A stretch of DNA of 63,990 nt, the filler included, from Diploschistes diacapsis (taxonomy: Eukaryota): the NCBI GenBank assembly GCA_023645945.1. It is 4 parts of 4 records of this genome, joined end to end, with 100 filler letters (N's around TTAATTAATTAA, not from the genome) between each part and the next. Parts side by side here need not be neighbours in the genome. Positions count along the whole stretch, not along the records: positions 32,825 to 49,134 come from JALAIB010000514.1; 3 more parts are not named here. The stretch is one strand, 5' to 3'. Within the stretch, counting starts at the first letter, position 1. Every line of letters starts with the position of its first letter. This document shows positions 16,314 through 49,234 of the stretch, one piece after another. The notes under the pieces are model-generated. The model did not search any database. It was not told where the DNA came from and saw only the letters and a program-made list of their open reading frames with translations. A program made the translations under genes and the position numbers.

Positions 16314-16413
16314 NNNNNNNNNNNNNNNNNNNNNNNNNNNNNNNNNNNNNNNNNNNNTTAATTAATTAANNNNNNNNNNNNNNNNNNNNNNNNNNNNNNN
16401 NNNNNNNNNNNNN
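16314..16413. other. Artificial contig linker N44-TTAATTAATTAA-N44
   Basis: Exactly 100 bp with a core that has stops in all six frames; identical to the two other linkers. Confidence 0.98.
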
Positions 16414-32724: not shown

Positions 32725-32824
32725 NNNNNNNNNNNNNNNNNNNNNNNNNNNNNNNNNNNNNNNNNNNNTTAATTAATTAANNNNNNNNNNNNNNNNNNNN
32801 NNNNNNNNNNNNNNNNNNNNNNNN
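32725..32824. other. Artificial contig linker N44-TTAATTAATTAA-N44
   Basis: Same 100-bp structure as the other linkers. Confidence 0.98.
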
Positions 32825-32862
32825 TCCCTTCCCTCTCAAGCTAACGCCCCCCCTTCTCGCAG

Positions 32863-33402
32863 ACCTGGCAAGCAATGTCTCACCTCGAAAGCCTCGGTAA
32901 GACCCGCCACATCGGCGTCTCGAACTTCTCGCCCGCGCAGCTCAAGCACCTCCTCGACCACCCCCACACAACCACCCGGCCCTTCGCCCACCAGTTTGAG
33001 GCCCATCCATACCTGCCGCAGACAACCTGGCTCCTGTACCACGCCGAGCAGGGCATCCACGTAACCGCCTACTCGCCCCTCGGCAACGCGAACCCGACCT
33101 ACGGCTCCGCGCACGAGGAAGTCGAGCCCTTGCTTTCGTCGGACGTGATCAAGGGGATAGCGAAAGACAGGGAATGCACGCCCGCGCAGGTGGTGCTGGC
33201 GTGGGGCCTGAGCCGGGGGACGAGCGTGATTCCGAAGAGCAGCCATGCAGGTAGGATTGAGGAGAACTTTGGGGCGCAGAGGTGCGGGTTGGAGTATGAG
33301 GATTATGAGAAGTTGCATAAGATGGGGATGAGGCCGAAGAGGTTTAATAATCCGAGTGGGAGTTGGGGGGTGGGGTTGTATGAGGGATTGCAGGATTCGT
33401 AA
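32863..33402 (+). CDS. Aldo/keto reductase, last exon only (5' part lost at the contig end)
   Basis: GKTRHIGVSNFS, HPYLPQ, TAYSPLG, TPAQVVLAW, VIPKS, RIEENF; preceded by GCTAAC...CAG acceptor. Confidence 0.9.
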   Translation, partial: TWQAMSHLESLGKTRHIGVSNFSPAQLKHLLDHPHTTTRPFAHQFEAHPYLPQTTWLLYHAEQGIHVTAYSPLGNANPTYGSAHEEVEPLLSSDVIKGIAKDRECTPAQVVLAWGLSRGTSVIPKSSHAGRIEENFGAQRCGLEYEDYEKLHKMGMRPKRFNNPSGSWGVGLYEGLQDS

Positions 33403-33773
33403 GAGACGGGCAGTTGGCGAAGCCTAGGGGCATGAAGTAGAGGGAAGGTGCTGGATGGGGGCATGGCAAAGATTGTAAGAGTGGATGTGGACTCCTCTCA
33501 AAAGTTTTGATGTGTGCTTGGCTTTTCCAAGAGCGACTTCCTGACATTGTCATGCGTGTGAACGAACGTTGTATTGGTTTCTTGATGTACGTTAACAACT
33601 ACCGAAATGAAACCGCAAGGCCAATAATAGAGGCTACCAAACCTGCTAAGTAGCGTTGAGGACGTAAAGGCAAGAGAACTCTCCCTTACGAAACCCATAC
33701 CAAAGTATGACCATTACTTGCGTTCCCCATTCATAACTTACGCGTGCAAAAACCGCGGAGCTTTGCTAAGAGA

Positions 33774-36700
33774 TCATCCCGGGCTCTTCCCCGACAGTTG
33801 CTGCACCGTGGCGGTGCCTGCCGTATCTGATGTAGTAGCCGACTCTTCTTCATCTTCATGCTTAAGCTTCCGTCGCCTTATGTTGCCAAGGTGATGTAAC
33901 CCATCCTGCACCCGGTCAGCAACCACGTGGGGCGTACATATCATAAGTCCGGCCTGAAAGTCCAAACGCTGGGCGTCTTCGCCAGCTCGCGGGTCATTCA
34001 TGACTTGAATATATTTGTCAAAGTTATTGCGAACGGTTCTGCCTTCCCGTTGGATGAAGCTGGCTACTGGCTTGTGAAAAGCTCCGATGGATGCAATGGT
34101 CATGACTGCAAGCGATGAAGGTAACATAATCTCGAGAACCCAGTACAGATCGGGTTTGATGTTGCTCCATTGATCAACTGGCATGGCGAAGAATGAACTG
34201 AAGAAGGCAAGGGGAGAGGAAACGATTCTAAGGATAGCTAGTGGGTATATGATATCCTTCAGATAGTCTTACGTGACAATCGTAAAAATAGTAACGACGC
34301 GGGTCTGCCACTTCCGCCTCGTCGGTCGTAACTGTTCTGGGCTTGCTGGAAAATGTTAGGATACACTGTGATCAATCAAACCTTTTCTAGCTAACTTAGA
34401 CAAACCTTCATGCCTATCAAGTTTTGGCACTATGAAGCTTCAGCGGAGCGCACAATTGTGGTGTCATCCTCCACGTACATGTTCTTGTGCGTTATTAGCG
34501 CTTTTGGTTATGAAGTTTACATGATTGCAAGAAGCATCCAATGTTTTCATGGCCTTTCGCAGAGGAAAGGTGGTGGTAGCATCAGAGAAAGGCTTCTTTT
34601 CTTGCATCTGTTGTATGATATTTTGCTCCTTCATAAATAGATTTTCGAAGATTCGTAGTTCGTCCACCACATCATTCTAATCAGAGTCAATATTAGAAGG
34701 AACTAGATAAACCACTAGCGTACAAGCTCGATTAGTATATCCAAATCATGCTCTAAGTCCTGACGCATTCTTGGCTGGAACTTGCCATTGTAAACCTCGA
34801 GGCTCGTTGAAAAACCTTTGATCGAAACTGCGTTGTTTTTAATGAGATCTGCGAGATACTCTATAGGTGTCAAGGCTGGAAAGAAGGAGAGGGCTTAATT
34901 CCAAGATCTTGCCTTCATATCTTGCCAGGACTCCAGGCCTAGCGGGGCTGCTTTCCTAGCACCGACTAAGTTCCGTTTGTGCTACGAATTATGGGAACAT
35001 GCCTCCAACATTCCAGCTACACAGCTCTGAACAACAAGACTCACAAACATATAACGCTTTGTGGAAGATCTGGGTTTCAAGATTCCAGTCACCTTTGCTT
35101 CCCAATCAGCCTTGTCGGTTGCTTGCTCGCCAATCTCTTTATCCTCCGATTCAGGAGCAAATGTGAGGATGGTTTTTAAGCCGAGCTTCCACATTCAGAC
35201 AGTGTCTATGGCCTGTGGGTCTCAGGGTGACCTTCACTAGGATTAAGATCTTGCAATCATGCGACGTCTGTTGGGCTTCCGTAGTCTACTCTGACTGGTC
35301 CCTTCACAATATACCGAATCTTCCATAAACGTGTCATGCCAGGTCAATTTGGAAGAGAGTTTCTTAAAGGCGTGAACAATGCCATCTTTGGTCATATTGA
35401 TCACTCACATGTAAAGCTAGTGAATAGGAGCTTTTCTGTTTTGGAGCCAGATGACTTTTAGTGGGATTGTCCTGGAAATCTGTTAATTGATCGGAAGATT
35501 GCAACCCCGTGCAGCTGGTGACTCTGTGACTTCAGCACAACCTGATCTACATCGCGCTCCTTTGTATCCCATAGGTAAGGATATCCGAATTGGTCGAGGG
35601 TTTGTCTACACTGTTTAGCCAGACCCTAGGAGGCATTGAGAACGACTGGCCGCAATGAGATGGAAAGCTGGGAAGACAGATACCGCCAGATGAGTTTAAC
35701 ATTAAGACTCTCACTATTCGACATTGAGCGTGGTACCTTGGGCGACGTGTGAAGGGAGCGAAGCTCTTCTCTCACGACTACCTCGCGCTTCTGGAATGCT
35801 TCACGATCATCCCAGCGGCTAGACTATTCTTAGCAGAGCGCACTGAAGCCTCCTTGATAGACAATTTTGACTCGGCTTCTTACAGGTGAGGGAAATGAAG
35901 AACCAGAAAATCATTCTTCATCCAGACAAAGGAATCGGGGTATTGCCAACGAGGACGCTCAAGACGAAACTTCTTCAAAAAGTCTTCCTAAGGCTGCTTG
36001 TTCAGAAACTTCTCACGTGTTAAAGGAGCTCTTCTTCCCCGGGCTAGAGCACTTTGTAGCATGGGAACCCAGTTGCCTACACAGCATGGGACATGTACCA
36101 ATCTGTCCAATCATCAGCCTCATTGCCAGGCATATTATAAACCAGGTCTGGGCGCAACGACGTGCCTGTGCGGTTCGGTTGTCCAAGTGAAAAACCGTCT
36201 CCGAGTCCACTTCTGATGAATTGATTGAGACTCATATCATCATAGCGAAGTTTGGATGGAAGGATTCCCAGTGTTGTAGGTTTGTTGTGTGCTTTCCCGT
36301 CCTGTACCCTTATCGCAGTCCGGAACTCGCTTGGGAAACTGTACAGCCGAATTTTGACGTTATCTAAGATATCATTTTGCAGCTCTCGATTGTTTGAAAC
36401 AGTTGTAACTCATATGGACACAATAATTGCTTGAGCCTACCTAGCAGCGAGTCGTAATACTCACCGAGTCCAATCCAGATGGCCATCCAATGATGTTCTG
36501 TTGCAAGAACATCATCAAAGCCATCATCGAAGCCATTCCATTGCGCATATTGAGATAGCTGTGAACTCGATTTTGTTACTAGATACTCCCACTTGGGAGG
36601 CGAATCAGGGCCATAATCGTGAAATTTTACACGAGTCTTCTCTTCTTCAGAATAACACGGCAATGGTATCTCTGTGGAAAAGATACGGAACTGAGTGTAT

Positions 36701-37349
36701 AGATCTGATAGACTCCGATTGTTAGGGCTTATTTGCGCGCATATTTTTTGACCTAACGCTAGGCATGGACCGTGTTCATCAAACAGGGGTTGATTGGGAC
36801 CCGCAAGAACATCGGAACCACGATTGGGAGTTGAAAGGAAAGTGATAAATCCAGTATTGGCGATGGACGAGTTGGGGGATCCGCATAGATCCACGAAGGC
36901 TCTCTTCAGAATGAGACCTCCTAATCCATGACAGATGAATACTAGAGGGGTTTTCTACAATTTTCTTAGCAACTTAACGGCCAGCTATTGGGACATACCT
37001 TGTCCTCTGGACACTCTTTACAAATGTACTGGGAGAGTCGCCAGGCCCAGTAATCAAGATCTTTCCCCAATAGAATGTCGCATGTGTCACCTGAAGCTGA
37101 TCCATCGCGCAGAGGTTTATTTTCGAACAGATCCCGTTCTTCTGGAAGAAGATGGTCATAACGCAAGATTTTGCACTTCAAGCGACCTCGTCCAAGGTCA
37201 TCGGAGAGCTTGTCAAGCCAAGAATATCCAGGAATCCAGTTCCAATAAGGGGTAACGAATAATTCAGGTACTATTATTACAATGCTTTTGAACACTGAGC
37301 GAGGCCACCGAACTCCTTGATGGAACTTACTCCACATTTTGGCTATCAT
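33774..37349 (-). pseudogene. Disrupted gene(s): N-terminal SERAC1/SesB-like alpha/beta-hydrolase domain and C-terminal CorA-like coiled-coil plus 2-TM domain
   Basis: PLVFICHGLGGLILKRA and FLSTPNRGS near 36830-36950; VVTIFTIVT/IVSSPLAFFSSFFAMP and DVVDELRIF near 34180-34680; the middle region is broken into short ORFs. Confidence 0.55.
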
Positions 37350-37594
37350 GTCTTGAAGCTTGCGTCGCAACAGCCTCGGTTTTGTTGGAACATGTATCTT
37401 CAAGAGGATGTCTCGCAGTTTTGGCGTTATTAAAGGACATCTCTGCTCTGAATAAGGGCATTCACATGCTATAGTAGGGGTAAGAACGAAAGCCTTCGTA
37501 ATTCCAACAGGTCCTGACCAAGGAATTGCGGTGATCTTAAAAAAGATTTCATGTCCGCATAACTTGCGCCACCTACGCTCTACGAGGTTTATAA

Positions 37595-38716
37595 TCAGTT
37601 TCTATATTTTGCTAGAGCAGCTTTCATGCTCTCGCTCAGCTCGGGTTCCTGATTCCTTGCTTTCCTAGAAGCGAGCTCTGAAGTTGACTCTCCAGATGGA
37701 AGGGCTGTCGAGGCATCTAGTGACTGCAGAACTCCTCCTCGTTCTTTGTCAACACGACAATTGCTAAAGCGCTCGGTAGCCAACTCTTCACGCGCTTCGA
37801 AGGCAGTGTCCCCAGCCTCTGTTTGCTTATTTTCCTCTAGTGCGACCTTCCTGCTAATCCCTGTAGGCAACATCCCGATCGGCACAGCCTCCGATTCTCT
37901 ACTTCTTCCAGCCTCGCCCTTCTTTTTCGCCGTCTTTTGGATGCGAAAAGGTTCCCGAACACTGTCGTGCCATCTCTTGACCTTGACCTCTCCCCAACCT
38001 TGCACACTGGCAATCTCTTCTTTCCGAGCGTTGACGGCTGCCCGCACGCTTCCAAACGCGCTGACCAGCCCCACGGCGTCGGCTTTATGTATGCCTCGAG
38101 GAACAGTGACAAACTCGACCATTCGCTCCGCATAGCTCATTGCCTGCTGTCCTCGAATGCCGGTTGGTGCTGCATGCTCGAGGACTTTGTAGGCCTCGAG
38201 GTAACGCGCCGCTTCCCGTGCGGACCAAGCGAGTATCAAAGTTAAATTGTTGACCAGACTTGTCTTTGCCAACTCTCGTAATGGCTCCTCATGATTATCG
38301 ATATCGACCATTGACATGAGCACGCGCAGATTGAATTTCCCCGCTAATTGACGTATCCGCTGGTAGATGTACTCAGGATGCAGGCGATGATACTTGAGAG
38401 ACAGAAATAGCGCACAAGTGGTTGCACCGAGGACGTAGTCAGCTATCGTATCGCTGTATTCCCATGGCAGAGCTTTGATTTGAGTCAGGATAGGATTGCC
38501 TTTCTGACGGGGTGATACAAGGATTGAACTAGGACCAGAGGGGCGGGCGATTGCTTGTGGAGTGGGCTGTGTGACCTTTTGTTGAGCAGGATTTGTTTGC
38601 GCCGAAGAAGAGCTTGCAGCAGCTTTGGAGGAATTGGCTCGAAATGGTTTATCTTTCTCAACAGCATTTGCCAAAGCAAGAAAGTCTGCATCTGCAGTAA
38701 GGTCGTCTTCATCCAT
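37595..38716 (-). CDS. RAD10: Nucleotide excision repair endonuclease subunit Rad10/ERCC1 (Swi10)
   Basis: ILVSPRQKGNPIL, DYVLGATTCALFLSLKYHRLHPEYIY, LILAWSAREAARYLE, HhH region GWGEVKV. Confidence 0.95.
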   Translation of the reverse strand: MDEDDLTADADFLALANAVEKDKPFRANSSKAAASSSSAQTNPAQQKVTQPTPQAIARPSGPSSILVSPRQKGNPILTQIKALPWEYSDTIADYVLGATTCALFLSLKYHRLHPEYIYQRIRQLAGKFNLRVLMSMVDIDNHEEPLRELAKTSLVNNLTLILAWSAREAARYLEAYKVLEHAAPTGIRGQQAMSYAERMVEFVTVPRGIHKADAVGLVSAFGSVRAAVNARKEEIASVQGWGEVKVKRWHDSVREPFRIQKTAKKKGEAGRSRESEAVPIGMLPTGISRKVALEENKQTEAGDTAFEAREELATERFSNCRVDKERGGVLQSLDASTALPSGESTSELASRKARNQEPELSESMKAALAKYRN

Positions 38717-39004
38717 GGTGGGAGATAATTTGATAAAGGAGCAAGGCTTGGCAAGTAAAGCTTACAGAGAAATCTGCGTCGCACTCACCCCAGAGCTAGC
38801 CGCCCTAGCGCGCGACTTCGGGTGAGGAGTAAATCCGTCACCTAATTTAACACGCGACGTGGCAACAAATATAATATTTAATAATAAGCGTGTTTTTATT
38901 TTTAGTTTGATTTAGGTAAATGTGAAGGAACTTTATTTGGATCTAATATACCTTTAGTTTAGAAATCTTATTGATTCCAGATTTAACCCATAATGTTATA
39001 CGTT

Positions 39005-39030
39005 ATTCTTAAGCGAAGCGCAGGACTATA
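39005..39030 (+). repeat. Left arm of a long-range inverted repeat (ATTCTTAAGCGAAGCGCAGGACTATA)
   Basis: 39010-39030 is the exact reverse complement of 47029-47049; 25/26 match when extended to 39005/47054. Confidence 0.9.
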
Positions 39031-39189
39031 GTAGTAGATCAGTGTCTTCATGGGCGCAGAGAAAACCGTAGATAAGAAATCAACTCCGAAAGTCGCGGTT
39101 AATTAATCGAACTGAATTATAATTAAATGATAAAGTGTGCTGAGGAACCCGTGCATTACATATGTTCTAGCGATTTCGCATTTTCCGTG

Positions 39190-39976
39190 TCCATATCGCA
39201 TGGATTGCCTCTCGCTCCATAGTCTTCTCCCCGTGATAACCCTCGGCCTGGGCAAAGTAATATCCCCTCTGGTTTGTAAGCAGCCGTGAAATCGCAGTTG
39301 TAATGCGTATGCCCAAACGCCCAAACTTTGACTCTGTCACTCTTGAAGCATACCTCGTCTGATAAGTCCGTTGAGAAAGCGCTCATGATGGGGCTCCCAG
39401 CATGCCTCGGCTCGATCGCACGAACATCCAGCGATGGGCTCCAATGCGAAAAGATGATGATATTAACATCGGACTGTTCAAGGTCTGCGACCTGCGCGTT
39501 GAGCCAGGCAAGATCCCGCGTATGCGCCTCGTTGTGCATGCCGACGTCCCAGTCGCTGGTTTGGAAAAAGTCATTGAGCCCGCGGTTGACCGCCATTTGT
39601 CTTTCAGGCGGGATGGAAGAAAAGAGGCTGCAGTCCAGAATGGTAACGTTCGTGCCGGGCAGCTGGAAGGCTGTGTGGTCGAGCAATATAAACTCTCCCA
39701 ATGACTTGTTCTTACGGACGTCCTGTTCGAAAGCGCGAAGGATATCGAGAGTGTCAGGCCAGTTGGAATGATAGGCTTCATGATTGCCGGGGACGAAAAG
39801 CACAGCGCGGAACAGGTTGAGCTGTAGGGTCAAGCAGGCAAGGTAGTCGTCCTTGTGCAATGCAACGTTGCCCACGTCGCCAAGAAGCGCTAGGTAGGGC
39901 GCCTTTGGACGATCTTGAAGATATCGTAGGCTTTGGGGGCCTCCAAATGCAGGTCGGAGAGAATCTGGACCGCCAT
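39190..39976 (-). pseudogene. Calcineurin-like metallophosphoesterase pseudogene (two frameshifts)
   Basis: MAVQILSDLHLE in one frame; LLGDVG, VPGNHEAY, FSHWSP and FGHTHYNCDF in a second; the family's terminal TNQRGY in a different frame near 39260-39280. Confidence 0.85.
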
Positions 39977-40109
39977 CGCGAGGTTGGTGGTGCAGATGCC
40001 AAGAGGACAGAAATGTGCCCCGACTTCACCCCTCTTGCGGACTAGAGTGATGGCTGCCCTGATTCTCGCGCAACTTGGGTGAAACTTAGGTGAGCCCAAG
40101 TGAGCCCAG

Positions 40110-40697
40110 CTAAGGTGGAACTTTTCTCTGAAAAGGCTTCTATAGAGATCGTACAAATGTTGCTGAAGGCCGGCGCTGATATTAACGCTCAAGGGAGTGT
40201 TTACGGCACTGCTCTACAGGCAGCTTCAACAGGCTGCATGTGCTTCATTCTTACCCGACAAGGAGCTAGTGCAAACACTTTTGAACGCCGACACCGACAT
40301 CAATGCCCAAGGAGGAGTATATGGTAACGCTCTCAAGGCTGCTTCCTACAAGGGCTCTGAGAATCTCGTACGAAGGCTACTAGAGGCCGGTGCAAACGTC
40401 AATGCTCATGGAGGAGTTTATGGTAGTGCCCTACAAGCTGCTTGTGCTTCATGTAAACCTCAAGAGAGCATAGTACGGATGCTTTTAGATGCCGGTGCTG
40501 AAGTCAATGCGCAAGGAGGGAAATTTGACAGCGTTTCGCTGGCTGTTTTATCGAAAATTTACACAGAGGGAATCCAACTCGAACTGCCTGATGAGTACAA
40601 TATTCCTTTCGGGTACGACGAAGGTATACCAGATGACCGGCAAGGGGAAGACTTTTCCTCTTCTGATGAATCCTTACCATTGATTACGGAGAATTAA
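40110..40697 (+). pseudogene. Ankyrin-repeat C-terminal fragment (GADINAQGGxYGxALQAA type, typical of fungal NACHT-ankyrin proteins)
   Basis: About four repeats; frameshift near 40250; no upstream NACHT or start codon. Confidence 0.8.
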
Positions 40698-41009
40698 GGA
40701 CATTTCTGCAAAATTTTCTATTAATAGTCACATTAACCGTCATTCCTATTCCTCACTCTATCCTTTTCTTTGCCTCTGAAAGCTAATGGTGGGAAGACTA
40801 TCCTACGGATATCTCATGAGAACTGGGATTTGTCTTCTGCAAGCGGCATCCAGTAGTGGCCTTCTAGCTATCGGTAAGTACCAGCACTTTCTGTAAGAAC
40901 CTATTGCCAATCGTTTGACCGCCCTAAGCAGTCCATCCTTTTAAAATGATTTGTTGTAGATTGCTGCAAACATTCTGCAACCGTCGCAGACAATAACATT
41001 GCAAACCTT

Positions 41010-41342
41010 CATCAACTCATGCTTCAATGCTGTGATGAACGTTAGTGCGCTGACTATACCGACGTTGACCGATTTGACGCCTTTGGTGAAATTCATCGGG
41101 TTTGCCAGGTCATCGGGGCTGTCCTAGTCAACTATGTTGGGGTCGACATCTGGTGCTTTCTCAACGTCTATTGACGCCTCAACAGGCATGGCCTCTTGAT
41201 CTTCTGCGTCAGAGAGGGACCCATTGATAGCCAGCTCTGGGCTTGCAATTCTCTCGCCGTCTCTAGATGTCCAAATGGGCGTGGAATCTTGTTCTCCCGC
41301 GCTTCTGGAACTCGGTACAGAGGGACTCGAGGTTGTAGCCAT
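41010..41342 (-). pseudogene. N-terminal fragment of a DHA1-type MFS drug transporter
   Basis: DVEKAPDVDPNIVD*DSPDDLANPMNFTKGVKSVNVGIVSALTFIT matches the family VDWDGPDDPxNPxNW pattern, with W replaced by TAG; homology ends after TM1. Confidence 0.75.
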
Positions 41343-42099
41343 GCTGCTGGTACCGTTGATTTAACTCGAAATTGTTGATGGTTCTCATGGGACTTAATAG
41401 CAGGAGGTTCAAATTTAAGAGAGCAAAAGAGTGGATATAGATCAAGAGAGATCTCGAGGAGCTCCATTTCCATCTGTCAACGAATCAGAGATTTTTGAGT
41501 AGTCCATTCTTGAAATCGCTCTGTCCTAGCCCACCTAGGAATTGCCCCTATTCCGGGTCCCTTTCTTAGTCAAGCCAAGATGTCTAAAGGCCACATTTCA
41601 TGCACTTCGTACCATAGCAGGACAACGTTATCTGTTTGGCCTAGAATGCAAAGGAGACAAACCCTTCCCACCTTTTAGATGGTAGGTTAGATGAGTTGAG
41701 ACGATCAAAGAGAGCCATTCGGCTTGATCATGCATTCTCTGCGTTTGCTGGGGATGTCGTCGGAAGAATCTGCTGTGAGACTCCGCCAAATATGATGAAC
41801 CAGGCTGGATTTTGGGCGCATTCGTTAGTAATCTTAACGTCGATGTCTTCAGCGAAGATTGTTCGGATATAACCATAGACAAGACTTGATCGAGAGAATT
41901 ATGAGGCAGCTTCTACTGTTCATGCATCTTCCTGTTCCGGTCAGGTATGTACCCTGCTAGCGGTATCTGAAAAGCAGACTTCTCTGTAGCGATAGCTTGG
42001 TTCGCATGATATCAACCATTTTCCTGTTCCAAGTCTATCCGGAGCCGCAGGATTCAACTCATTCCGCATAGTTAGTCTCATTCCATCCAACGAACTTCA

Positions 42100-43010
42100 A
42101 TGCGATTGCAGCTTGCACAATTCATAGCTAGCAATGTAGCACATCGTAGACTCAAAGCGCTGAACCTTAGTCCTTGAAAAGTTAATGAGAATGCAACGAG
42201 TTTCATCGTTCGGCACATTGTTTCAAGCGATATGCCTGGGTCTGAACGCTCCATGGAGCGGCTGAATAGAGAAGCTATGGTATTGTTCGGTGCCGGCAAA
42301 GCGAGGACTGCACATACAATGGGCTTCATGTCCTAGTAAATTCTACGCAACCAACACGTGAAGGAACGTCTTGGAAGCAAGCTAAAGGATGCCATGGCCG
42401 ACTGTCCCAAAAACCTGCCAAGATGTGCAGACTTAGGGAGTTGCCTTACCTACTGGCGGCGATCAAGGAAGGACTTCCGTAAATCTGATGCAGAACTCCA
42501 GAAGCACTGTGGCTAGTCTGAGCTTCGGCGTTATTTGTCGTCTTGCCCGCTGCTCTTCTGACATTGCGCTCAAGTACAAGCAATGGACTCTTCCTAAGAA
42601 CACCCCTGTTGGAATGGGAGCATATTGGACGCATACTGATCCAGAAGTCAACCAGAAACCCTCCAAGCTCATCTCCAACTGCTGGCTAGGGGACTATGAC
42701 CTAAGAATGACAGAAAATTGGGTTGTTTTCTCCAAGGGATCGAGGAACTGCTTGGGCGTCAAGTAAGGATATCCCATCTTTTTCGATTTTCCTGCAATCA
42801 CCATTGCATTACGTCTTTGAGACTCTTGACTGACAAACATGGTTGTTTGTTATATGCTGAGATGGAGTGGGCACCAGCAGTCATCATCAGACCGAACGCA
42901 CCGGAGCTGTCCTTGGTCGCACCGACAAGTCGGACCTCACGCAAACTGTGGATTTCTTGACCCCCCCGCCAAAGTTGGATAGGAAAGGAACAAGACTCGT
43001 GGTAAAATAA
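42100..43010 (+). pseudogene. Cytochrome P450 C-terminal half, multiply disrupted
   Basis: I-helix EAMVLFGAG, K-helix LPYLLAAIKEGL, WTLPKNTPVGM and heme motif FSKGSRNCLG; in-frame stops (TAG TAA near 42334) and frameshifts. Confidence 0.85.
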
Positions 43011-43286
43011 GTGCAGGGAAAGGGTCTGGATAAGAGCGATGCATAGCGTAGAGATATGGCATCGGACACCGTGCAGTGATAAGAGGATACGTGTCCTGGA
43101 GCGGACCTTATTCTATACGTTCATTAGGTATAGAGCGCCCATATTTTCACGCCTCCTTGAGGTGTGCGACCACTGTTCCAGAAAGGTCAGAAGGGCTTGC
43201 CAATCTCGTTAGTTTCAGTGTCTGGCATACTGTTATCTGAATATCTATTTGAGAATTCGTTGATGGGGCTGACAAGGATCGCCTGG

Positions 43287-45854
43287 TTAAGCCGGTCTCG
43301 ATCTATTGGGAAGAGTCATTTTTGATGCAGTTGGACTGATGTATCCTTCCTCGTCTTCCTCGTCCCTTTCTGGGATATCCGATATTTGGCGCTCGTGTCT
43401 TGCTACTCCTTTCCCCTTCCTATCCATGCTAAGGCCGCGCCCACCGGGTCTGCGGTCTCGGTCGGGTGAGCCAATAGTCCCCGCTTCAGTTTCTCCAGAT
43501 CTCTCCTTCACATGCTTCTTTGTCTTGGCATCCATGGGCGCGTCTGATAGGATGACGTTCAACCACTCGGCGAGCCTCAATTTCGCATGTTCCAGCACCG
43601 GTTCGAAGTAGCTCCACGGCATAAAGGTCGGCAAAGTGACAGCGGACCATGTGTCATGCCTTCCAGCGTAGATGACCTCGAGAAACGGCCTTCCATACTG
43701 GACCCTCCGCTTTCTAGTCGATAAGGCCGCCAGTTGGTTCTGGCGGCTTTCGTCAGCAACTATGTCCACGAAGAAGGCACAAGCCGGGCAACACATTTTC
43801 GTCACTGCCAATACTTTGCTGACTTGTCCCGCTTTATCTATTACATCTTGGTCGATGGCATGGTTCTCAGTTTCTAACACGCCAGCGTACTCCAAGTTCT
43901 CCTTGGTCTTGGTTCTCAAAACGGATAAGCTGAGCAGGGCGGTCTCACAGTGCGTGGTGCCGGTGAACTTCGTCGTTTTCTCCCATGCCTTTCGAATGCC
44001 CATCGCTTCTAGCCACTCGTCCAGCCTTTGCTCGGGCTCCACAGCTGCATTGTACTGGGGCACCTTTCTGAGGTAGTCTTTGAACGGCATGAGTTGCGTG
44101 TCTTGTTCGTCGCTGGATAGATCTATCAGGTGAATTTTCAAGTTACGCAGGAATTGATGGACTAGGTCACTGCCTCTTTTCTTGGGAAAGCAGATCGAAC
44201 GAATGGATCGCCAATGTAAGACCACAAGGTCCAACCATCTCCGAGCGGAGCGAGACCAATGCTGCGGCTGCTCGCTTCTATCTCCAATGCTCTCTGTATC
44301 ATCTTCTTCATCGTCGATTGCTTCTTCTTCGCCGAGTATTTCTTCATCTTGACCGCTACCTCCCGTGGTGGACACGACTGGGGCAATTCTTTTCGACCCA
44401 GAAGATGAGCCCGATCCCCGAGAGCCTTTGCTTGATGGTTCTGTACGCTCACGAGTCTGAGCCCTTGACGCTCTGGTAGGAGCAGCGTAAGAGGGTGTCG
44501 CTACTGGCCTTGCTGCTGCCCTTGTCCCATGAGACCTGCCTATGCTCTTTGATTGTTTCGGAAGGCCCGGCTCCAGACTCCATTGAGGGTACTGTTCGAT
44601 TGTACTCTTCAACTTTTGAGATCTCTCTATCCACATCAGGTACTCTAAGATGAAGTCAAAGGACATCCCCGATCCCGAGTCTATCACGCATACATCCAAC
44701 AGCTTGTCAAGGTTCTCAATGGCGCGCAGGAAACTCGCGACTGCCACTTTCAACTCAGTAGCCTTCGCTTCTCTGATGGTATCGTCGGAGTCCATAACAG
44801 TGGCTTCGAAAAGGTTGAGGGCAACACATGCCCGTTCTGCTTCAGCTGTGAGGTTGATCAAGCTTGTCCTTAGCGCTATGCCCAAGCGCTCCTTCCCATC
44901 TACATCGTACATCTTGTATTTTCTCTGGTCGAGGCGGTTCAGTATCCCGATATCACAGTATACCTGCCGTACTGTGTTCGGAAGAAGAAGTTGTTCTCGC
45001 AGATCCATCTGGTCTTTCTGCGCTCTTAGGCCTAACTGCAGAGGGGTCGAGGTAAGATAGGCATATAGATTGCGCCCAGAGGGCTGTTTAGGCCCTTTTT
45101 TGGTGCTTGCCTTCATTGCATGCTTGCCCCGTTCGATACGGGCCTTGATCTTGAACGCGCTTGCCATAGCCACATATCTCTGTATCATGTGGTACCACTC
45201 TATTTTGCCTTCTTCGTTTGGCGAGGCATGTACTCGGCGAATCATGGCTCCAAGCAGTTCCACATGGCGAGGAAAGGCTACCTTCCAGTGTGTCCTCTCT
45301 TTACCGCCGACCACATTATAGTTAGGGATGTAGTTCGATTTGGTCAGGAGCCATTCCGTTAGCGAGAAGACCGCTTCTGGGTCGGTCATGACTGGAGGGT
45401 CGGAAAGTACTTGGCTGGTGATTCGAGTCTGGTGCTTGTTCTGGGGAGACCCTTGTGTCGGCTGAGTAGCGCGCAAAGTGTTCGGAGGTATTTCGGCGCG
45501 ATAGGGGTTGCGTGTTATTAACAGGTCATCTATCAAGTTATACTCGCTAAGCGTATCCACTGTCTCTGAGAAGTACGTGACATTGATTTTGAATGGGTGA
45601 CCTGGAGAAGCCGCAACAATTTCGGGTCCACGAACCAAAAGGTTGACAAAAGCTGTGCTTAGATGGAACAGAGTGACGTCTACTGGTCGTTGAGCCGCTG
45701 TTTGCGAGATAGCTGTACGGAGGTGCTCCTTTGTATCGAAAGACAAAGCTGCATTCGAGTGCTCGAAAAGCGATAGCATTTGAGTGACTGTTCTAATCTC
45801 GAGCACATCCATGCGATCAGGCAATATCTTTTGTTTCTGGGACGAAGCCGCCAT
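43287..45854 (-). CDS. Large intronless protein (~855 aa) with a C-terminal zinc-dependent nucleic-acid deaminase-like domain (OTT_1508-like)
   Basis: Uninterrupted ORF (open from 45980; first ATG at 45854); FTGTTHCETALL at ~43944-43952, AVTKMCCPAC at ~43779-43793, downstream GRHDTWSAVTLP; N-terminal FVNLLVRGPEIVAA. Confidence 0.75.
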   Translation of the reverse strand: MAASSQKQKILPDRMDVLEIRTVTQMLSLFEHSNAALSFDTKEHLRTAISQTAAQRPVDVTLFHLSTAFVNLLVRGPEIVAASPGHPFKINVTYFSETVDTLSEYNLIDDLLITRNPYRAEIPPNTLRATQPTQGSPQNKHQTRITSQVLSDPPVMTDPEAVFSLTEWLLTKSNYIPNYNVVGGKERTHWKVAFPRHVELLGAMIRRVHASPNEEGKIEWYHMIQRYVAMASAFKIKARIERGKHAMKASTKKGPKQPSGRNLYAYLTSTPLQLGLRAQKDQMDLREQLLLPNTVRQVYCDIGILNRLDQRKYKMYDVDGKERLGIALRTSLINLTAEAERACVALNLFEATVMDSDDTIREAKATELKVAVASFLRAIENLDKLLDVCVIDSGSGMSFDFILEYLMWIERSQKLKSTIEQYPQWSLEPGLPKQSKSIGRSHGTRAAARPVATPSYAAPTRASRAQTRERTEPSSKGSRGSGSSSGSKRIAPVVSTTGGSGQDEEILGEEEAIDDEEDDTESIGDRSEQPQHWSRSARRWLDLVVLHWRSIRSICFPKKRGSDLVHQFLRNLKIHLIDLSSDEQDTQLMPFKDYLRKVPQYNAAVEPEQRLDEWLEAMGIRKAWEKTTKFTGTTHCETALLSLSVLRTKTKENLEYAGVLETENHAIDQDVIDKAGQVSKVLAVTKMCCPACAFFVDIVADESRQNQLAALSTRKRRVQYGRPFLEVIYAGRHDTWSAVTLPTFMPWSYFEPVLEHAKLRLAEWLNVILSDAPMDAKTKKHVKERSGETEAGTIGSPDRDRRPGGRGLSMDRKGKGVARHERQISDIPERDEEDEEGYISPTASKMTLPNRSRPA

Positions 45855-45967
45855 TGTGACACGCGTGAAGAGAATAACTTTATGGATCACGGTCTGCCAA
45901 TATCGAAGAAGAGATCTCTGGGAACGGAGACTTAAAGCCAGGTAGGAGCCGGATGAACACGAGATGT

Positions 45968-46009
45968 GAAGATAGACCAAAGAAGATAGACCAAAGAAAA
46001 TAGATCAAG
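45968..46009 (+). repeat. Three tandem copies of a 14-bp unit (GAAGATAGACCAAA x2 plus one degenerate copy)
   Basis: Read directly; ~115 bp upstream of the deaminase-like ORF ATG. Confidence 0.85.
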
Positions 46010-47028
46010 CAAGATTGAGGCCAATTCTAATCGAGGAAAATCACGTAGGGTAGATTTTCAGTGAATATTCTCCAGGCAAAGTATTAGATGGAAGATAAAG
46101 CAAATGAGAGTGAGTCAGAGCTACATCGAAGGAAATTTCGATAACCCTATTTTACCCACGCACTGATGCACAAAGCAGGCAAAATTGCAATATGTTGAGT
46201 CCGGAGAAAAAGTCAGAAGGGGATTCTGAAGATGTTAATCAATTCTAACTAAAGTGGCTAACTAGACCTTATCACGGTTAAGAAGTAAATTTTTTTCTCG
46301 AGGCCAAGTACAAAAACAGCATATATTGATAGACCGTGCTGTGAGCATATTTGTTATAAGAGAAAGAGTTACTGTAAAGGCAATGACACTACTGAAAGAC
46401 TATCCTACCATGGATTCAGCGCAGCCCGCAGAAAGCGGACAGCTGCACTCTTATATCTGATAACTATCCCAGATACACCTAGCCCTACAGCGTAAGCCGA
46501 AACTACATGCTCTTATATCGATAACAGACTCAACGTATAATGAGGGTGATTGAGCTGTCAACCAAGCGATCGCAACAGCCCAGGCATGACTTTTCGTGGT
46601 GTCATGCTATACACAACACCTATGGAGTACGCCTCATATTCCGTCTTGCCTATAATGACTGCCATTAAGGAGGCTATTTTTGCAAAGAAGCGTTGAACTT
46701 TGCATATACAAACGTGGTTTTGCTACGGAGATAAGGGGTTAAACCCGAATGCTTATTATAAATTACCACGTAGATTCGCTTCGTAGGTCAGTTTTTGCCC
46801 CATTTACGCAATCATCTCACTCGGGCTCGTTATTGCTTATGTACATACAAACCCCCCAAACGACATGATCTAACATCCGATGAGTCGACAACTACGCCTG
46901 CTTTATCAGCAGCAGAGATTTTATGAAATAGTAATCTAGTAATCTTTGTTGCGGGCCCTAAATCCCGTCAGCTACACAATTCTCACTATGCAATCGAATC
47001 ACAAGATAAATCACACGGAGTCATATAA

Positions 47029-47054
47029 TATAGTCCTGCGCTTCGCTTAGGAAT
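47029..47054 (-). repeat. Right arm of the long-range inverted repeat (TATAGTCCTGCGCTTCGCTTAGGAAT)
   Basis: Reverse complement of 39005-39030 with 1 mismatch. Confidence 0.9.
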
Positions 47055-47741
47055 TATGGTTGCTTAGGTAATCCAAAGCCCGCATCCCAAGTTCTTTCTG
47101 CTCCTGAAACTGCAAGGACATCCCCATTTTCAGTACGATGTTTGGACAGCTTCGCAAAATCGCCCAGTTCAGCTACTCGGAGGCGGTGTCCAAATAGTAA
47201 GCGCTTCAAGCTGTGCGGGAAGACAAAGTTCAGGCCGAAATGCCTATCGTCGAGTCAACCGTCTGCTATCAGGCCTTCTATGCCATGCATACTAGTATGA
47301 AGCTCCGTCGTTCTGGCTCAGTATCAGCGTGGACTTTCGCAGCCAACGATTCGTGATCAAAGGAGCGTACACTAATGTTACCAGTGGACTTTCACCACGG
47401 GGATGCCGGGCGGCCCGCAGAAAGCGGTCGACTTCAAGTTATATCCCCCATAGCTTGTTCGATACTGCTTTCGATAAGCTCTGAGGCCCGGGTATTTTTG
47501 GATGTAGAGACCCTTGTAGGGACTTGTCCGTCAATTACGGGCCATTCGTGATAGCTCACATGAGATATCTCACCGAATATCCTGACATTGGGGGCACTAA
47601 TGTTGGTTATCTAATAGTGGCAAAGAGTAGGTGGACGTTCTTTATGTCAATAGAACTTATATAAACTCTGCACCCACGGCTCTACACGAACATATTTTCT
47701 CTTTATCGCCCCTTTCTCTTGTTCAATTGACATCCTTCGCC

Positions 47742-48713
47742 ATGAGCGAACTTAAAACGCTCTCGGAATCGGGAGAGTATCTCACCGAGGAAACCCATGA
47801 AAGCGTCTACAATGAAATAGATCCTTCGAACATACGGCTCGAACGTCCATTCGTTGCATGCGTTATTGGCGCGAGCCGTGGCATTGGGGCGGGCATTGCG
47901 AAAGCCTTCGCCACGGCTAGCGCCAGCACCATTATCCTAGCAGCACGCTCGACGGACCAGCTACAGAGCGTCGCGGAGGAAATCAAGCAGCTCAACTCCA
48001 AAGTCGAAGTTCCGACGATGAAATGCGATGTGACTTCGGAGAGCAGTCTTTCAGAGCTGGCATCCAAGATAGAGGCCGACTTTGAGAGGCTGGATGCGAT
48101 TATTTACAACTCTGGTTATGCTGGGAAATTCGTTATGAAGGTTACGGAAGGCAAGCCATCGGAATTTGAGAGAGGCTTTGCCGTCAACAGCATCGGTACA
48201 TATTACGCTGCGCATTTCTTGATACCGTTACTGCTCAAGTCCTCCAACGGAGCCAAGCTGTTCATCGCTGTATCGACCGCCGGATCCTGGATGAAGAACG
48301 GCCTATTTGCCAGCCCCGGTTACTGCATTAGTAAATTGGCCCAGATGAGGCTACTGGAGATGATCTCGATCCAGTATCGGAACGAGGGGCTATTCGCTGC
48401 GGGTGTTCATCCTGGCGCAGTGAAGACCGAGATGGCGAAAGACGCTCCAGAAGAATTCCTGCCATGTATGTGCCACAGCTTACTCTTCCCTTGGTCGTGC
48501 ATATGGTTTGCTGATATGCTTGACGTTCTAGATTTGGTCGATGACGTTGCCCTGTGCGGCGCGTTCTGCACTTGGCTTGCTGCCAATAGGAAAGAGCTTG
48601 AATGGCTGAACGGACGGTATCTGTCCGCGAAGTGGGATGTGAAACAGCTGGCGTCCATGAAGGATGCCATTGTCAGCGGTGATTTGCTTACTGCCGGACT
48701 TCGGCTTCCGTAG
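47742..48713 (+). CDS. Short-chain dehydrogenase/reductase (one 66-nt intron, ~48466-48531)
   Basis: VIGASRGIG Rossmann motif, CDVT, YCISK catalytic motif, VHPGAVKT, WLNGRYLSAKWD. Confidence 0.92.
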   Translation: MSELKTLSESGEYLTEETHESVYNEIDPSNIRLERPFVACVIGASRGIGAGIAKAFATASASTIILAARSTDQLQSVAEEIKQLNSKVEVPTMKCDVTSESSLSELASKIEADFERLDAIIYNSGYAGKFVMKVTEGKPSEFERGFAVNSIGTYYAAHFLIPLLLKSSNGAKLFIAVSTAGSWMKNGLFASPGYCISKLAQMRLLEMISIQYRNEGLFAAGVHPGAVKTEMAKDAPEEFLPCMCHSLLFPWSCIWFADMLDVLDLVDDVALCGAFCTWLAANRKELEWLNGRYLSAKWDVKQLASMKDAIVSGDLLTAGLRLP

Positions 48714-49134
48714 GCCCCAGACGCAGGCTCAGGTAACGCTAATGTGTGTGCAAACTCATGTACATTGTACGGGATGGAAAGAAACAACACTACCTTGATC
48801 TATTGCCAACGGCGCGTTACTTTAGAAAGATAGACTCAACGCACATGCATATTATTCTGTCGGTCCCCTGAAGCGCAGTTGCTCCCAAGTCTAACATGTG
48901 ACCTATCCCCACAATGACGTCTCGACCAACTCTTACTGCCAGTACAACCAAGTTGCTCCTAAACATCCATACCGTCAACTCCAACTACCATCGATCACCC
49001 TACCGTCGTCGCCAACAATCCCTGCCCCAACACACAGCCCCCTTCTCACTAATCCACCACCCCCATCGCACCGATTCCTGACTAACCCCGCGCGGCAATC
49101 CGCCATCGCCCCACCACACTTCTCCAGTCCGCCC

Positions 49135-49234
49135 NNNNNNNNNNNNNNNNNNNNNNNNNNNNNNNNNNNNNNNNNNNNTTAATTAATTAANNNNNNNNNN
49201 NNNNNNNNNNNNNNNNNNNNNNNNNNNNNNNNNN
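49135..49234. other. Artificial contig linker N44-TTAATTAATTAA-N44
   Basis: Same 100-bp structure as the other linkers. Confidence 0.98.

What the first reader, a model, noticed from the sequence alone, without database searches (positions are those of the whole stretch)
43287..45854. Intact orphan-like ~855-aa protein with a C-terminal HxE...CxxC nucleic-acid deaminase domain inside the island
Seen: this is the only intact gene in the island and it has no introns. It has a long helical N-terminal region (LLVRGPEIVAA motif), an S/G/R-rich and then acidic linker, then THCETALL, TKMCCPAC about 50 residues later, and GRHDTWSAVTLP. Established: HxE plus PCxxC/CxxC is the Zn-binding signature of the cytidine/adenosine deaminase superfamily, and the OTT_1508-like clade occurs in bacterial polymorphic toxins and in fungal genomes with unknown substrates. 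Inference: a candidate mobile toxin, defence or editing enzyme that stays intact while its neighbours decay.
Basis: partly seen in the sequence, partly recalled or inferred. Interest (0 to 1): 0.78.

Follow-up and report, generated by a model that had tools for sequence, protein, structure and literature searches.

The report
Fungal OTT_1508-like deaminase gene in transposon-bounded island
This is an intact gene of a lichen fungus for a divergent member of a known fungal family of zinc-dependent nucleic-acid deaminases, two members of which edit RNA in Neurospora, and it sits among broken genes in an 8-kb stretch bounded by inverted copies of a high-copy repeat.

Summary
It is not an orphan. 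A word-index search found only the query itself. An exhaustive HMMER search found 60 relatives, including an 840-aa full-length homologue and relatives in lichen fungi (Thelotrema, Diploschistes). The whole architecture, N-terminal module plus deaminase domain, aligns collinearly with 700-900-aa proteins of other Pezizomycotina.

The C-terminal domain is a divergent OTT_1508-like deaminase:
- The query scores below Pfam's cut-off (14.2 against 27 bits).
- 21 of 60 relatives hit the same model, and four relatives or related loci pass the cut-off.
- All 30 language-model neighbours are PF14441 clusters.
- H635, E637, C689 and C692 are conserved.

The AF2 model (pLDDT 81) matched no solved deaminase, so the fold is unconfirmed.

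The fungal group was described in 2011. Two Neurospora members (OLD-1/2) are A-to-I editors of adjacent zinc-finger genes. No zinc-finger partner exists in this window.

New here: the "island" (39006-47053) is bounded by 29-nt inverted copies of a high-copy repeat, each flanked by TTA. It holds fragments of four unrelated genes plus this one intact gene.

Verdict: a new member of a known kind, of moderate interest.

The parts
43287..45854 (-). Complete intronless coding sequence, 855 aa plus stop (protein P0001)
   Evidence: Collinear with the 840-aa homologue P0002, E 4.9e-115.
44580..45854 (-). N-terminal family-specific module, residues 1-425. It includes the LLVRGPEIVAA motif at 45609-45641.
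   Evidence: Alignment A2. hhalign of A2 against A4 is collinear from residue 7, probability 100. No Pfam family. The AF2 model is only moderately confident for residues 160-415. Only generic helical matches were found, best Z 7.3.
44265..44579 (-). Low-complexity linker, residues 426-530: S/G/R/T-rich, then acidic
   Evidence: Translation. pLDDT is below 50 in both models.
43485..44264 (-). OTT_1508-like deaminase domain, residues 531-790
   Evidence: Pfam PF14441: E 0.043, 14.2 bits, below the cut-off of 27. 21 of 60 relatives hit the same model. All 30 atlas hits are PF14441 clusters. AF2 pLDDT is 80-96 over most of the domain.
43944..43952 (-). HCE motif: H635 is the putative zinc ligand and E637 the putative catalytic glutamate
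   Evidence: H is present in 54 of 56 rows and E in 53 of 56 rows of alignment A1. In the model the motif sits at the N-terminal end of helix 142-158 of the domain.
43779..43790 (-). CPAC motif: C689 and C692 are the putative zinc ligands, preceded by K686
   Evidence: C689 is present in 44 and C692 in 45 of 56 rows (10 gaps each). K686 is present in 42 of 56 rows. The motif sits at the N-terminal end of helix 196-216 of the domain model.
43629..43658 (-). HDTWSAVTLP: conserved H733, W736 and P742
   Evidence: H in 42, W in 42 (plus 4 Y) and P in 48 of 56 rows, with 8-10 gaps. This fits the clade signature 'conserved polar (usually H) and aromatic..P' in Table 1 of Iyer 2011.
43290..43484 (-). 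Charged, disordered C-terminal tail, residues 791-855
   Evidence: pLDDT is below 50 at the end of the model.
39005..39033 (+). Left arm of the inverted repeat. The high-copy stretch runs from 39005 to about 39093. TTA lies at 39003-39005.
   Evidence: pair I1, 29 nt, 93% complementary; 2 matches in the window, 0 expected; word depth about 3400 against about 105 beside it in run X1. Sequence read.
47026..47054 (-). Right arm of the inverted repeat. TTA lies at 47054-47056.
   Evidence: the depth bin 47025-47425 reads 907 against 85-150 beside it in run X1.
39156..40025 (-). Metallophosphoesterase-like pseudogene. Its start codon, at 39976, lies in another frame.
   Evidence: Pfam Metallophos, E 5.1e-8. 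The two reading frames are shown.
40094..40697 (+). Ankyrin-repeat fragment in two overlapping frames. This segment is absent from the related run X2.
   Evidence: the joint 40115->42070 replaces 1954 bases with 369.
42437..42766 (+). Fragment of a cytochrome P450 C-terminal part
   Evidence: p450, E 1.3e-6, profile positions 349-413 of 462.

Best explanation
[quoted passage not shown] It has the architecture typical of the fungal group: a family-specific N-terminal module, a disordered linker, and a C-terminal zinc-dependent deaminase domain.

Inferred chemistry: H635, C689 and C692 hold a zinc ion. E637 shuttles a proton to a zinc-bound water, which replaces the exocyclic amino group of a base in a nucleic acid.

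Inferred substrate: by analogy with the only characterised fungal members (Neurospora OLD-1 and OLD-2), it most likely converts adenosine to inosine at a small number of sites in mRNAs. Expression would probably be conditional, for example under stress or mycovirus infection.

It lacks the adjacent zinc-finger target gene of the OLD-ZAO module, so its targets, if any, lie elsewhere.

The gene sits in an 8,048-bp unit bounded by inverted terminal repeats of a high-copy element. It probably reached or was kept at this site as cargo of a non-autonomous DNA transposon.

What is shown: the ORF, its homologies, motif conservation, the repeats and the decayed neighbours. What is inferred: zinc binding, catalysis, RNA as substrate, and transposition of the unit.

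My odds: OTT_1508-like fungal deaminase 0.85; catalytically active 0.65; A-to-I RNA editor 0.4; moved as a single transposon unit 0.4. The overall confidence figure of 0.5 refers to the statement as a whole, family assignment plus RNA-editing mechanism.
For: Homology:
- Exhaustive phmmer found 60 relatives at E<=1e-3.
- 21 of those 60 hit Pfam OTT_1508_deam at E<=0.01, at the homologous place. One (P0036, 29.4 bits) passes the cut-off, and one hits YwqJ-deaminase.
- ORFs in three of the 19 metagenome loci found with the family pattern also pass the cut-off: L009 29.5, L016 28.2, L012 27.2 bits.
- The query itself hits the model weakly: E 0.043, 14.2 bits.
- All 30 language-model neighbours of residues 530-790 are PF14441 clusters, score 0.93, sharing 204-207 of 256 features.

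Motifs and model:
- Catalytic and clade-specific residues are conserved in alignment A1.
- In the AF2 model (pLDDT 80.9, pTM 0.76), HCE and CPAC each cap the N-terminus of a helix, each just after a short strand residue. Helices 97-132 precede HCE. [quoted passage not shown]
- The N-terminal module plus deaminase architecture is collinear with 14 proteins of 693-907 aa; the eight whose names I looked up are from Dothideo-, Eurotio- and Sordariomycetes: hhalign probability 100, E 1.4e-54, 655 columns.

ORF maintenance in relatives:
- A +1/-1 indel pair 6 nt apart in run X2.
- A 132-nt (in-frame) skip in run X3.

Function of relatives: OLD-1/2 are A-to-I editors of UAG codons in neighbouring zao genes. 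This comes from the commentary PMC12754623, whole text read. The primary paper is not held.

Mobile context. Without the unit, the Rad10/dehydrogenase divergent intergenic region would be about 975 bp.
Against: - The query is below Pfam's own cut-off, and the whole protein gives no Pfam hit even at E<=10.
- No solved deaminase resembles the model: Foldseek best E 0.61; VIA-align over 48,161 chains best Z 3.4, with no deaminase in the 50 rows listed.
- DSSP finds only 1-2-residue strands, so a canonical five-stranded sheet is not predicted.
- No C2H2 or Zn2Cys6 motif occurs anywhere in the 64-kb window, so the defining OLD-ZAO pairing is absent.
- I could not compare the protein with the OLD-1/2 sequences.
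- One Thelotrema paralogue (P0005) has YCE and CCSGS at the catalytic positions, so inactive members exist.
- There is no RNA evidence of expression or editing.
- For the transposon reading: no transposase was found, no empty site was seen, the interior is single-copy by depth, and TTA may simply be the element's preferred target.
Confidence: 0.5

Rival explanations
1. It is a DNA cytosine deaminase that mutates transposons or other foreign DNA in the nucleus. Iyer et al. proposed this role for the fungal OTT_1508 group.
For: Passages of PMC3239186 state three things. The clade shares the extended strand-4/helix-4 loop with AID/APOBEC and 'might all deaminate cytosine'. The fungal versions show lineage-specific expansions and extreme divergence. 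Some are fused to chromatin domains. In this analysis the gene lies in a transposon-bounded unit. In addition, transposon genes adjoin relatives in 2 of the 6 loci whose ORFs were scanned: a Tf2-type integrase with chromodomain in L005 and a Plavaka transposase in L009.
Against: According to the commentary read, the only members tested experimentally edit adenosine in RNA. This protein has no chromatin or DNA-binding domain in Pfam. The window is not depleted in GC as a mutated region would be: GC is 0.46-0.52 across the island.
Confidence: 0.2
2. The deaminase serves the transposon that carries it, as a selfish cargo. It might, for example, blunt a host defence or bias the element's inheritance, rather than serve the fungus.
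For: It is the only intact gene inside the repeat-bounded unit. The repeat family is high-copy in all four runs laid.
Against: The interior of the unit is at single-copy depth in run X1: 123 against 85-105 for the flanks. Codon usage is like the host's: correlation 0.80 with pooled housekeeping genes, whose own range is 0.46-0.85. The same protein architecture occurs across Pezizomycotina, with no evidence that it travels with this repeat.
Confidence: 0.1
3. The protein is catalytically dead or on its way to decay. It would be a regulatory nucleic-acid binder or a young pseudogene that has simply not yet been hit by a stop codon.
For: The model lacks a well-formed sheet and matches no deaminase. 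An inactive-looking paralogue exists in Thelotrema. The neighbours are all decayed. In run X2 the contig covering 42070-44262 has depth 28 while those covering 44423-46534 have 97-114. This could mean that not all genotypes keep the 3' half, but it is weak contig-depth evidence only.
Against: All four catalytic residues, and the clade-specific K, H, W and P, are kept. An 855-codon open frame would not persist by chance (inference: about (61/64)^855). The indels seen in relatives preserve the frame.
Confidence: 0.1
4. It is a secreted or contact-delivered toxin, like the bacterial OTT_1508 polymorphic toxins.
For: The clade was founded on bacterial toxins.
Against: This is a eukaryotic intronless gene with host-like codon usage. 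Pfam finds no RHS, PAAR or other delivery domain and no immunity-type neighbour. The N-terminus (MAASSQKQKILPDRMD...) has no hydrophobic signal-like stretch, judged by eye with no predictor run.
Confidence: 0.03

Closest known systems
Fungal OTT_1508-like deaminases with an N-terminal domain (Iyer, Zhang, Rogozin and Aravind 2011, PMC3239186; Pfam PF14441)
   Same: It has the HxE...CxxC core and a K just before CxxC. It has a conserved H followed by an aromatic residue and P after the CxxC helix. Helical material precedes the HxE helix. A family-specific domain lies N-terminal to the deaminase. The family is found in filamentous fungi, is strongly divergent and has paralogues.
   Different: It scores below Pfam's cut-off: 14.2 against 27 bits. 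The paper calls the N-terminal domain alpha+beta. My low-confidence model is mostly helical with two beta-hairpins. This subfamily's close relatives are in lichen-forming fungi.
OLD-ZAO module of Neurospora crassa (Honda, Yokoyama and Suzuki 2025), known to me only through the commentaries PMC12754623 and PMC13327615
   Same: An OTT_1508-like deaminase of a filamentous ascomycete with the HxE...CxxC centre.
   Different: There is no adjacent C2H2 zinc-finger gene. No C2H2 motif occurs in the whole 64-kb window or in the 19 related metagenome loci. Sequence relatedness to OLD-1/2, virus induction and editing were not testable.
Bacterial OTT_1508-type polymorphic and effector toxins
   Same: The same deaminase clade, by Pfam model.
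   Different: There is no secretion or delivery domain and no immunity gene. This is a eukaryotic host gene with an unrelated N-terminal module.
Gene-fragment-carrying non-autonomous DNA transposons with terminal inverted repeats (Pack-type elements; PIF/Harbinger-like 3-bp TTA duplications). Both names are recalled, not from a call.
   Same: 29-nt inverted termini from a high-copy family, TTA on both outer sides, an interior made of fragments of unrelated genes in both orientations, and no transposase.
   Different: It also carries one complete, conserved gene. The unit is single-copy. Mobility of the unit is not shown. I could not classify the superfamily of the repeat.

Membership tests
OTT_1508-like deaminase clade (Pfam PF14441; Iyer 2011) | HxE and CxxC zinc/catalytic motifs, each at the start of a helix | tested here: met
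   H635-C-E637 and C689-P-A-C692. They are conserved in 53-54 of 56 rows and in 44-45 of 56 rows (10 gaps) respectively. Both lie at helix N-termini in the AF2 model.
OTT_1508-like deaminase clade (Pfam PF14441; Iyer 2011) | Score against the Pfam model at or above its gathering cut-off (27 bits) | tested here: not met
   The query domain alone scores 14.2 bits, E 0.043. The whole protein gives no hit. Relatives link it to the family: 21 of 60 hit at E<=0.01, and P0036 scores 29.4 bits. L009, L016 and L012 score 29.5, 28.2 and 27.2 bits. Membership is therefore by transitive homology and motifs, as a divergent member.
OTT_1508-like deaminase clade (Pfam PF14441; Iyer 2011) | Clade signatures of Table 1: a GxxK motif before CxxC, and an extended loop after strand 4 with a conserved polar residue (usually H) and aromatic-xx-P | tested here: met
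   K686 is present in 42 of 56 rows. H733 is in 42, W736 in 42 (plus 4 Y) and P742 in 48 of 56 rows. The G of GxxK is not evident in this subfamily, and the spacing from W to P is longer than 'axxP'. The match is therefore to the residues, not to the exact pattern (the pattern was read).
OTT_1508-like deaminase clade (Pfam PF14441; Iyer 2011) | Fungal group: helical insert before helix 2, and a family-specific domain N-terminal to the deaminase | tested here: met
   Helices at domain residues 97-132 precede HCE at 141. The N-terminal module is collinear with that of 14 other Pezizomycotina proteins.
Deaminase-like fold (CDA superfamily) | A three-layer alpha/beta/alpha core with a zinc site formed by H/C, C and C | tested here: inconclusive
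   The model has pLDDT 80.9, but DSSP strands are only 1-2 residues long. Foldseek best E is 0.61. VIA-align best Z is 3.4 (rmsd 4.7, 85 aligned), with no deaminase among the 50 rows. Iyer 2011 notes degraded C-terminal elements in this clade.
OLD-ZAO RNA-editing module | An adjacent C2H2 zinc-finger gene (zao) next to the deaminase gene | tested here: not met
   A six-frame motif scan of the whole window found no C2H2 or Zn2Cys6 pattern. A looser pattern gave only 2 isolated matches, at 59420 and 30842, and no tandem array. Pfam on the 36 island ORFs of >=60 aa found no zinc-finger family above noise.
OLD-ZAO RNA-editing module | A premature UAG in the partner transcript, corrected by A-to-I editing; induction by virus | not testable with these tools
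   No RNA run holds the stretch, and there is no partner gene.
Bacterial polymorphic toxin | An N-terminal delivery or repeat domain and a neighbouring immunity gene | tested here: not met
   No Pfam family was found on the N-terminal 485 aa. The neighbours are Metallophos, ankyrin and P450 fragments.
TIR-bounded non-autonomous DNA transposon (the island 39006-47053) | Terminal inverted repeats of a multi-copy family, with a target-site duplication | tested here: met
   29 nt, 93% complementary. Only 2 matches in 64 kb, 0 expected. Depth is roughly 9- to 30-fold above the flanks in X1 and higher in X2. TTA lies at 39003-39005 and at 47054-47056. TTA may be a preferred target, so the duplication alone does not prove a single insertion.
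TIR-bounded non-autonomous DNA transposon (the island 39006-47053) | Evidence that the unit moved: an empty site in a relative, or further copies of the same unit | tested here: inconclusive
   No joint across 39005->47054 appeared in the four runs laid. Contigs break at the repeats. The interior is at single-copy depth.

The most novel reading that the evidence does not exclude
A complete, conserved OLD-type nucleic-acid deaminase gene is the sole working cargo of an 8-kb Pack-type DNA transposon in a lichen fungus. On this reading, hitch-hiking on transposons is what scatters and multiplies this fast-evolving deaminase family across fungal genomes. Relatives also sit beside a Plavaka transposase, a Tf2 integrase and DUF6698 genes. 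The enzyme may act for or against mobile elements rather than as a fixed host regulator.
Probability: 0.2. Interest if true: 0.6.

Novelty: new member of a known kind. Interest (0 to 1): 0.35.

Why it matters
Fungal OTT_1508-like deaminases were predicted in 2011. According to the commentary I read, only in 2025 were two of them shown to be RNA editors that control an antiviral programme through their genomic neighbours.

This gene shows that a lichen-fungal branch of the family keeps the full catalytic signature without any zinc-finger neighbour. So the family probably has targets and roles beyond the OLD-ZAO pair.

The repeat-bounded, fragment-filled setting gives a concrete, testable route for how such genes move and diversify.

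None of this is very surprising to a specialist. It extends a known family rather than opening a new one.

Tried and rejected
- **Word-index protein search:** it returned only the query. I rejected this as evidence of orphan status once the exhaustive search found 60 relatives.
- **PDB sequence searches:** the single-sequence search found nothing at E<=10. The profile of A1 gave 10 rows at E 0.0048-4.3 (best: RSC8), none a deaminase, mostly helical or low-complexity regions outside the deaminase core.
- **Fold searches:** Foldseek on PDB and VIA-align wide for the C-terminal model found no deaminase. VIA-align wide for the N-terminal model found only arfaptin/BAR-like and coiled-coil matches at Z<=7.3. 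That is within the range the tool calls common for helical models.
- **Own genome:** not held, so I made no paralogue count.
- **RNA evidence:** no RNA holder is listed, so nothing can be said on expression or editing.
- **Variant-based selection test:** Read laying printed 40 of 441 differences and 12 of 54 indels, so dN/dS within the gene could not be computed.
- **Uncovered parts in X2 to X4:** these are not interpreted.
- **In-frame TAG codons joining long frames:** there were many chance cases and none convincing next to the gene.
- **Zinc-finger neighbours in the 19 metagenome loci:** none were found, but 13 of the 19 loci are under 4.1 kb, so this says little.
- **First search for related loci attempt with A1:** it failed for lack of a conserved stretch. 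I repeated it with the 7-row alignment A3.
- **Honda et al. 2025:** not held. Searches for the gene identifiers of old-1 and old-2 found nothing usable.
- **Literature link between Plavaka and deaminases:** 0 papers.
- **Foreign origin by composition:** rejected, because GC3 (0.56) and codon usage are host-like.
Full report
**1. The observation**

The window holds one ATG-to-stop frame at 43287..45854 on the minus strand, 855 aa long.
- LLVRGPEIVAA is residues 72-82.
- An S/G/R-rich then acidic linker is residues 426-530.
- HCE is residues 635-637.
- CPAC is residues 689-692.
- HDTWSAVTLP is residues 733-742.

The frame needs no intron. It aligns in one stretch, residues 7-820, with residues 7-824 of an 840-aa homologue (P0002, E 4.9e-115, 32% identity).

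**2. The surroundings**

The window is fungal housekeeping DNA. It encodes chitin synthase, methionine aminopeptidase, Sec24, Sec8, ArgJ, Sec61, an acyltransferase, Rad10, a short-chain dehydrogenase, Cdc48 and a PQ-loop protein.

The gene lies between Rad10 (37595-38716, -) and the dehydrogenase (47742-48713, +). The other coding signals in that interval are all broken:
- A metallophosphoesterase-like frame (39156-40025, -; Pfam E 5.1e-8) has its start codon at 39976 in a different frame, so it is probably frameshifted.
- An ankyrin fragment is spread over two overlapping frames (40094-40697, +).
- A 64-residue piece matches the C-terminal part of a P450 (42437-42763, +).

So 'the only intact gene in the island' is correct. 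GC content is ordinary across the island, 0.46-0.52.

**3. Not an orphan**

The word-index search returned only the query, which explains the orphan impression. The exhaustive HMMER search of 1.84 billion representatives returned 61 proteins at E<=1e-3 including the query. Twenty were at <=1e-10 and 5 at <=1e-30. One of the 60 relatives (P0018, nine short stretches, Glrx-like) looks like a low-complexity false match.

The closest named relatives are from lichen-forming fungi:
- Thelotrema lepadinum. The orthologue is annotated as two adjacent genes (P0003 for the N-half, P0007 for the C-half), and there is also a paralogue, P0005.
- Diploschistes diacapsis.
- Teloschistes.

More distant relatives come from Fonsecaea, Cladophialophora, Exophiala/Elasticomyces, Melanomma, Ascochyta, Didymella, Septoria and Colletotrichum. 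The source run is labelled a lichen metagenome.

**4. The C-terminal domain**

Evidence for an OTT_1508-like deaminase:
- The whole protein gives no Pfam hit at E<=10. Residues 527-775 alone hit PF14441 OTT_1508_deam at E 0.043 and 14.2 bits, below the cut-off of 27.
- Of the 60 relatives, 21 hit the same model at E<=0.01 at the homologous place. One (P0036, 29.4 bits) passes the cut-off, and one hits YwqJ-deaminase instead.
- A pattern scan of metagenome contigs with a 7-row alignment gave 19 confirmed loci. ORFs in three of them pass the cut-off: L009 29.5, L016 28.2 and L012 27.2 bits.
- All 30 language-model neighbours of residues 530-790 are PF14441 clusters, with score 0.93 and 204-207 of 256 shared features.

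I built a 56-row alignment from the query domain plus 55 of the 60 relatives. I left out P0003, P0006, P0014, P0018 and P0051 because they match only the N-terminal part or low complexity. Conservation in that alignment:

| Residue | Rows of 56 with the residue |
|---|---|
| H635 | 54 |
| E637 | 53 |
| C689 | 44 (10 gaps) |
| C692 | 45 (10 gaps) |
| K686 | 42 |
| H733 | 42 |
| W736 | 42 (plus 4 Y) |
| P742 | 48 |

These fit the clade signatures in Table 1 of Iyer et al. 2011. That table lists a K-containing motif before CxxC, a conserved H and an aromatic..P in the loop after strand 4, and a helical insert before helix 2 in the fungal versions (passages read).

**5. Structure**

The AF2 model of residues 495-800 is confident: pLDDT 80.9 and pTM 0.76. 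HCE and CPAC each sit at the N-terminus of a helix, as the two motifs do in deaminases. Helices precede HCE, as the paper says for the fungal versions.

Against this, DSSP labels only 1-2-residue strands, and no solved deaminase resembles the model. Foldseek's best E is 0.61. VIA-align over 48,161 chains gives a best Z of 3.4, and the 50 rows are helical-bundle proteins. I could not read coordinates, so the convergence of H, C and C on one metal is untested.

[quoted passage not shown] That may explain the miss. Even so, the fold remains unconfirmed here.

**6. The N-terminal part**

It has no Pfam family and no named atlas neighbour. The model is poor overall (pLDDT 55.6) and usable only for residues 160-415. 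It gives only generic helical matches, best Z 7.3.

It is nevertheless conserved. A profile of the lichen-fungal relatives aligns collinearly, from residue 7 on, with a profile of 14 proteins of 693-907 aa; the eight whose names I looked up come from other Pezizomycotina classes. The match has hhalign probability 100, E 1.4e-54 and 655 columns. That E-value also includes the C-terminal domain.

**7. What is known about function**

I could read only commentaries: PMC12754623 in full and passages of PMC13327615. The primary paper, Honda et al. 2025, is not held.

According to the commentaries, Neurospora OLD-1 and OLD-2 are OTT_1508-like deaminases that convert UAG to UIG in the transcripts of the adjacent zao zinc-finger genes. 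They prefer hairpin loops with U at -1 and are induced by mycoviruses. The Fusarium homologue of zao, CHE1, has three C2H2 fingers (passages).

I therefore looked for such a partner. No C2H2 or Zn2Cys6 motif occurs in any frame of the 64-kb window. A looser pattern gives two isolated chance-like matches far away. None of the 19 related loci has one either, although 13 of the 19 are under 4.1 kb.

The OLD-ZAO pairing is therefore not met here. The protein may work like OLD, but it is not part of such a module.

**8. The island is bounded by inverted repeats**

Laying contigs of four runs showed two short stretches of very high depth:
- At 39005-39093, depth is about 3400 against about 105 in X1, and higher in X2.
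- Around 47025-47057, the bin reads 907 against 85-150.

These two stretches are the arms of an inverted repeat at 39005-39033 and 47026-47054, 29 nt long and 93% complementary. They are the only two matches in the window, where 0 are expected by chance. If the termini are read as TTCTTAAGCG... on the left and ...CGCTTAGGAA on the right, TTA lies on both outer sides.

The bounded unit is 8,048 bp. Without it, the divergent Rad10/dehydrogenase intergenic region would be about 975 bp. Its interior holds four gene fragments in both orientations plus the intact deaminase gene. No transposase was found.

This resembles a non-autonomous, fragment-carrying DNA transposon. The names Pack-type and PIF/Harbinger-like TTA duplication are recalled, not from a call.

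Caveats:
- TTA may be the preferred target, so two independent truncated insertions are not excluded.
- No empty site was seen.
- The interior is single-copy by depth.

**9. Relatives in other samples**

Run X2 (a coded organism, 46% of words) carries the same arrangement at about 97-98% identity. One contig links 39284-40115 to 42070-44262, with 1954 bases replaced by 369, so the ankyrin segment is missing there.

Within the gene, the listed indels keep the frame. X2 has a +1 at 44659 and a -1 at 44665, and X3 has a 132-base skip. The tool printed only part of the differences, so this is supportive, not complete.

Codon usage and GC3 of the gene are like those of the housekeeping genes in the window.

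**10. Verdict**

The deaminase assignment is supported by sequence evidence but not by the fold search.

The gene is a new, divergent, lichen-fungal member of a family described in 2011 and partly characterised in 2025. The most likely mechanism is zinc-dependent deamination of adenosine in selected RNAs, with DNA cytosine mutation as the main rival. The repeat-bounded setting is the one new element, and it is worth a follow-up with long-read genomes.

Noticed in passing
window 40941-41360 (-): Two short frames are joined by a single TAG. Together they read ...DVDPNIVD*DSPDDLANPMNF..., which I recall as the N-terminal VDW(D/G)PDDP motif of fungal MFS transporters, with the stop exactly where the W would be. 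Pfam found no family on either frame. A TGG-to-TAG change is what A-to-I editing would reverse, but this is only a 138-aa fragment and is more likely plain decay.
   Followed up: partly
window 16313-16413, 32724-32824, 49134-49234: There are three evenly spaced blocks, each of 45 N, 11 letters and 45 N. The gene's own contig is recorded as 16,310 bases, which is the size of the piece 32825-49133. The window may therefore be pieces joined or masked at regular steps, and contiguity across the blocks is not assured.
   Followed up: no
L009:1877-3606, L005:9055-10239, L012:1149-1526, L016:4820-5341: Distant relatives of the deaminase in soil metagenome contigs lie next to a Plavaka transposase (L009, 640 bp downstream on the same strand), a Tf2-type integrase with chromodomain (L005), and DUF6698 genes (L012, L016). 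No paper in the library holds both 'Plavaka' and 'deaminase'.
   Followed up: partly
window 39100-44262 in run X2: In X2 the contig covering the metallophosphoesterase, the P450 fragment and the 3' half of the deaminase gene has word depth 28. The flanks and the 5' half of the gene have 97-190. This might reflect a mixture of genotypes that differ in this part of the island. Contig depth alone cannot show it.
   Followed up: no
P0005 and P0065 (relatives): A Thelotrema paralogue has YCE and CCSGS in place of HCE and CCPAC. An unnamed 944-aa relative has HPE and CCYSC. The family therefore contains both probably inactive and variant-motif members.
   Followed up: no
P0003 and P0007 (Thelotrema lepadinum, locus tags ending 004649 and 004648): The closest named orthologue is annotated as two adjacent genes, one for the N-terminal module and one for the deaminase half. 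I could not see the DNA, so I cannot tell whether this is a real break, an in-frame stop or an annotation split.
   Followed up: no
window 46750-46985 and 39285: There are indel polymorphisms next to both repeat arms in the related runs. In X2, 236 bases left of the right arm are replaced by 36 letters. X2 and X3 have 29-36-letter insertions at 39285 (table 5c).
   Followed up: no
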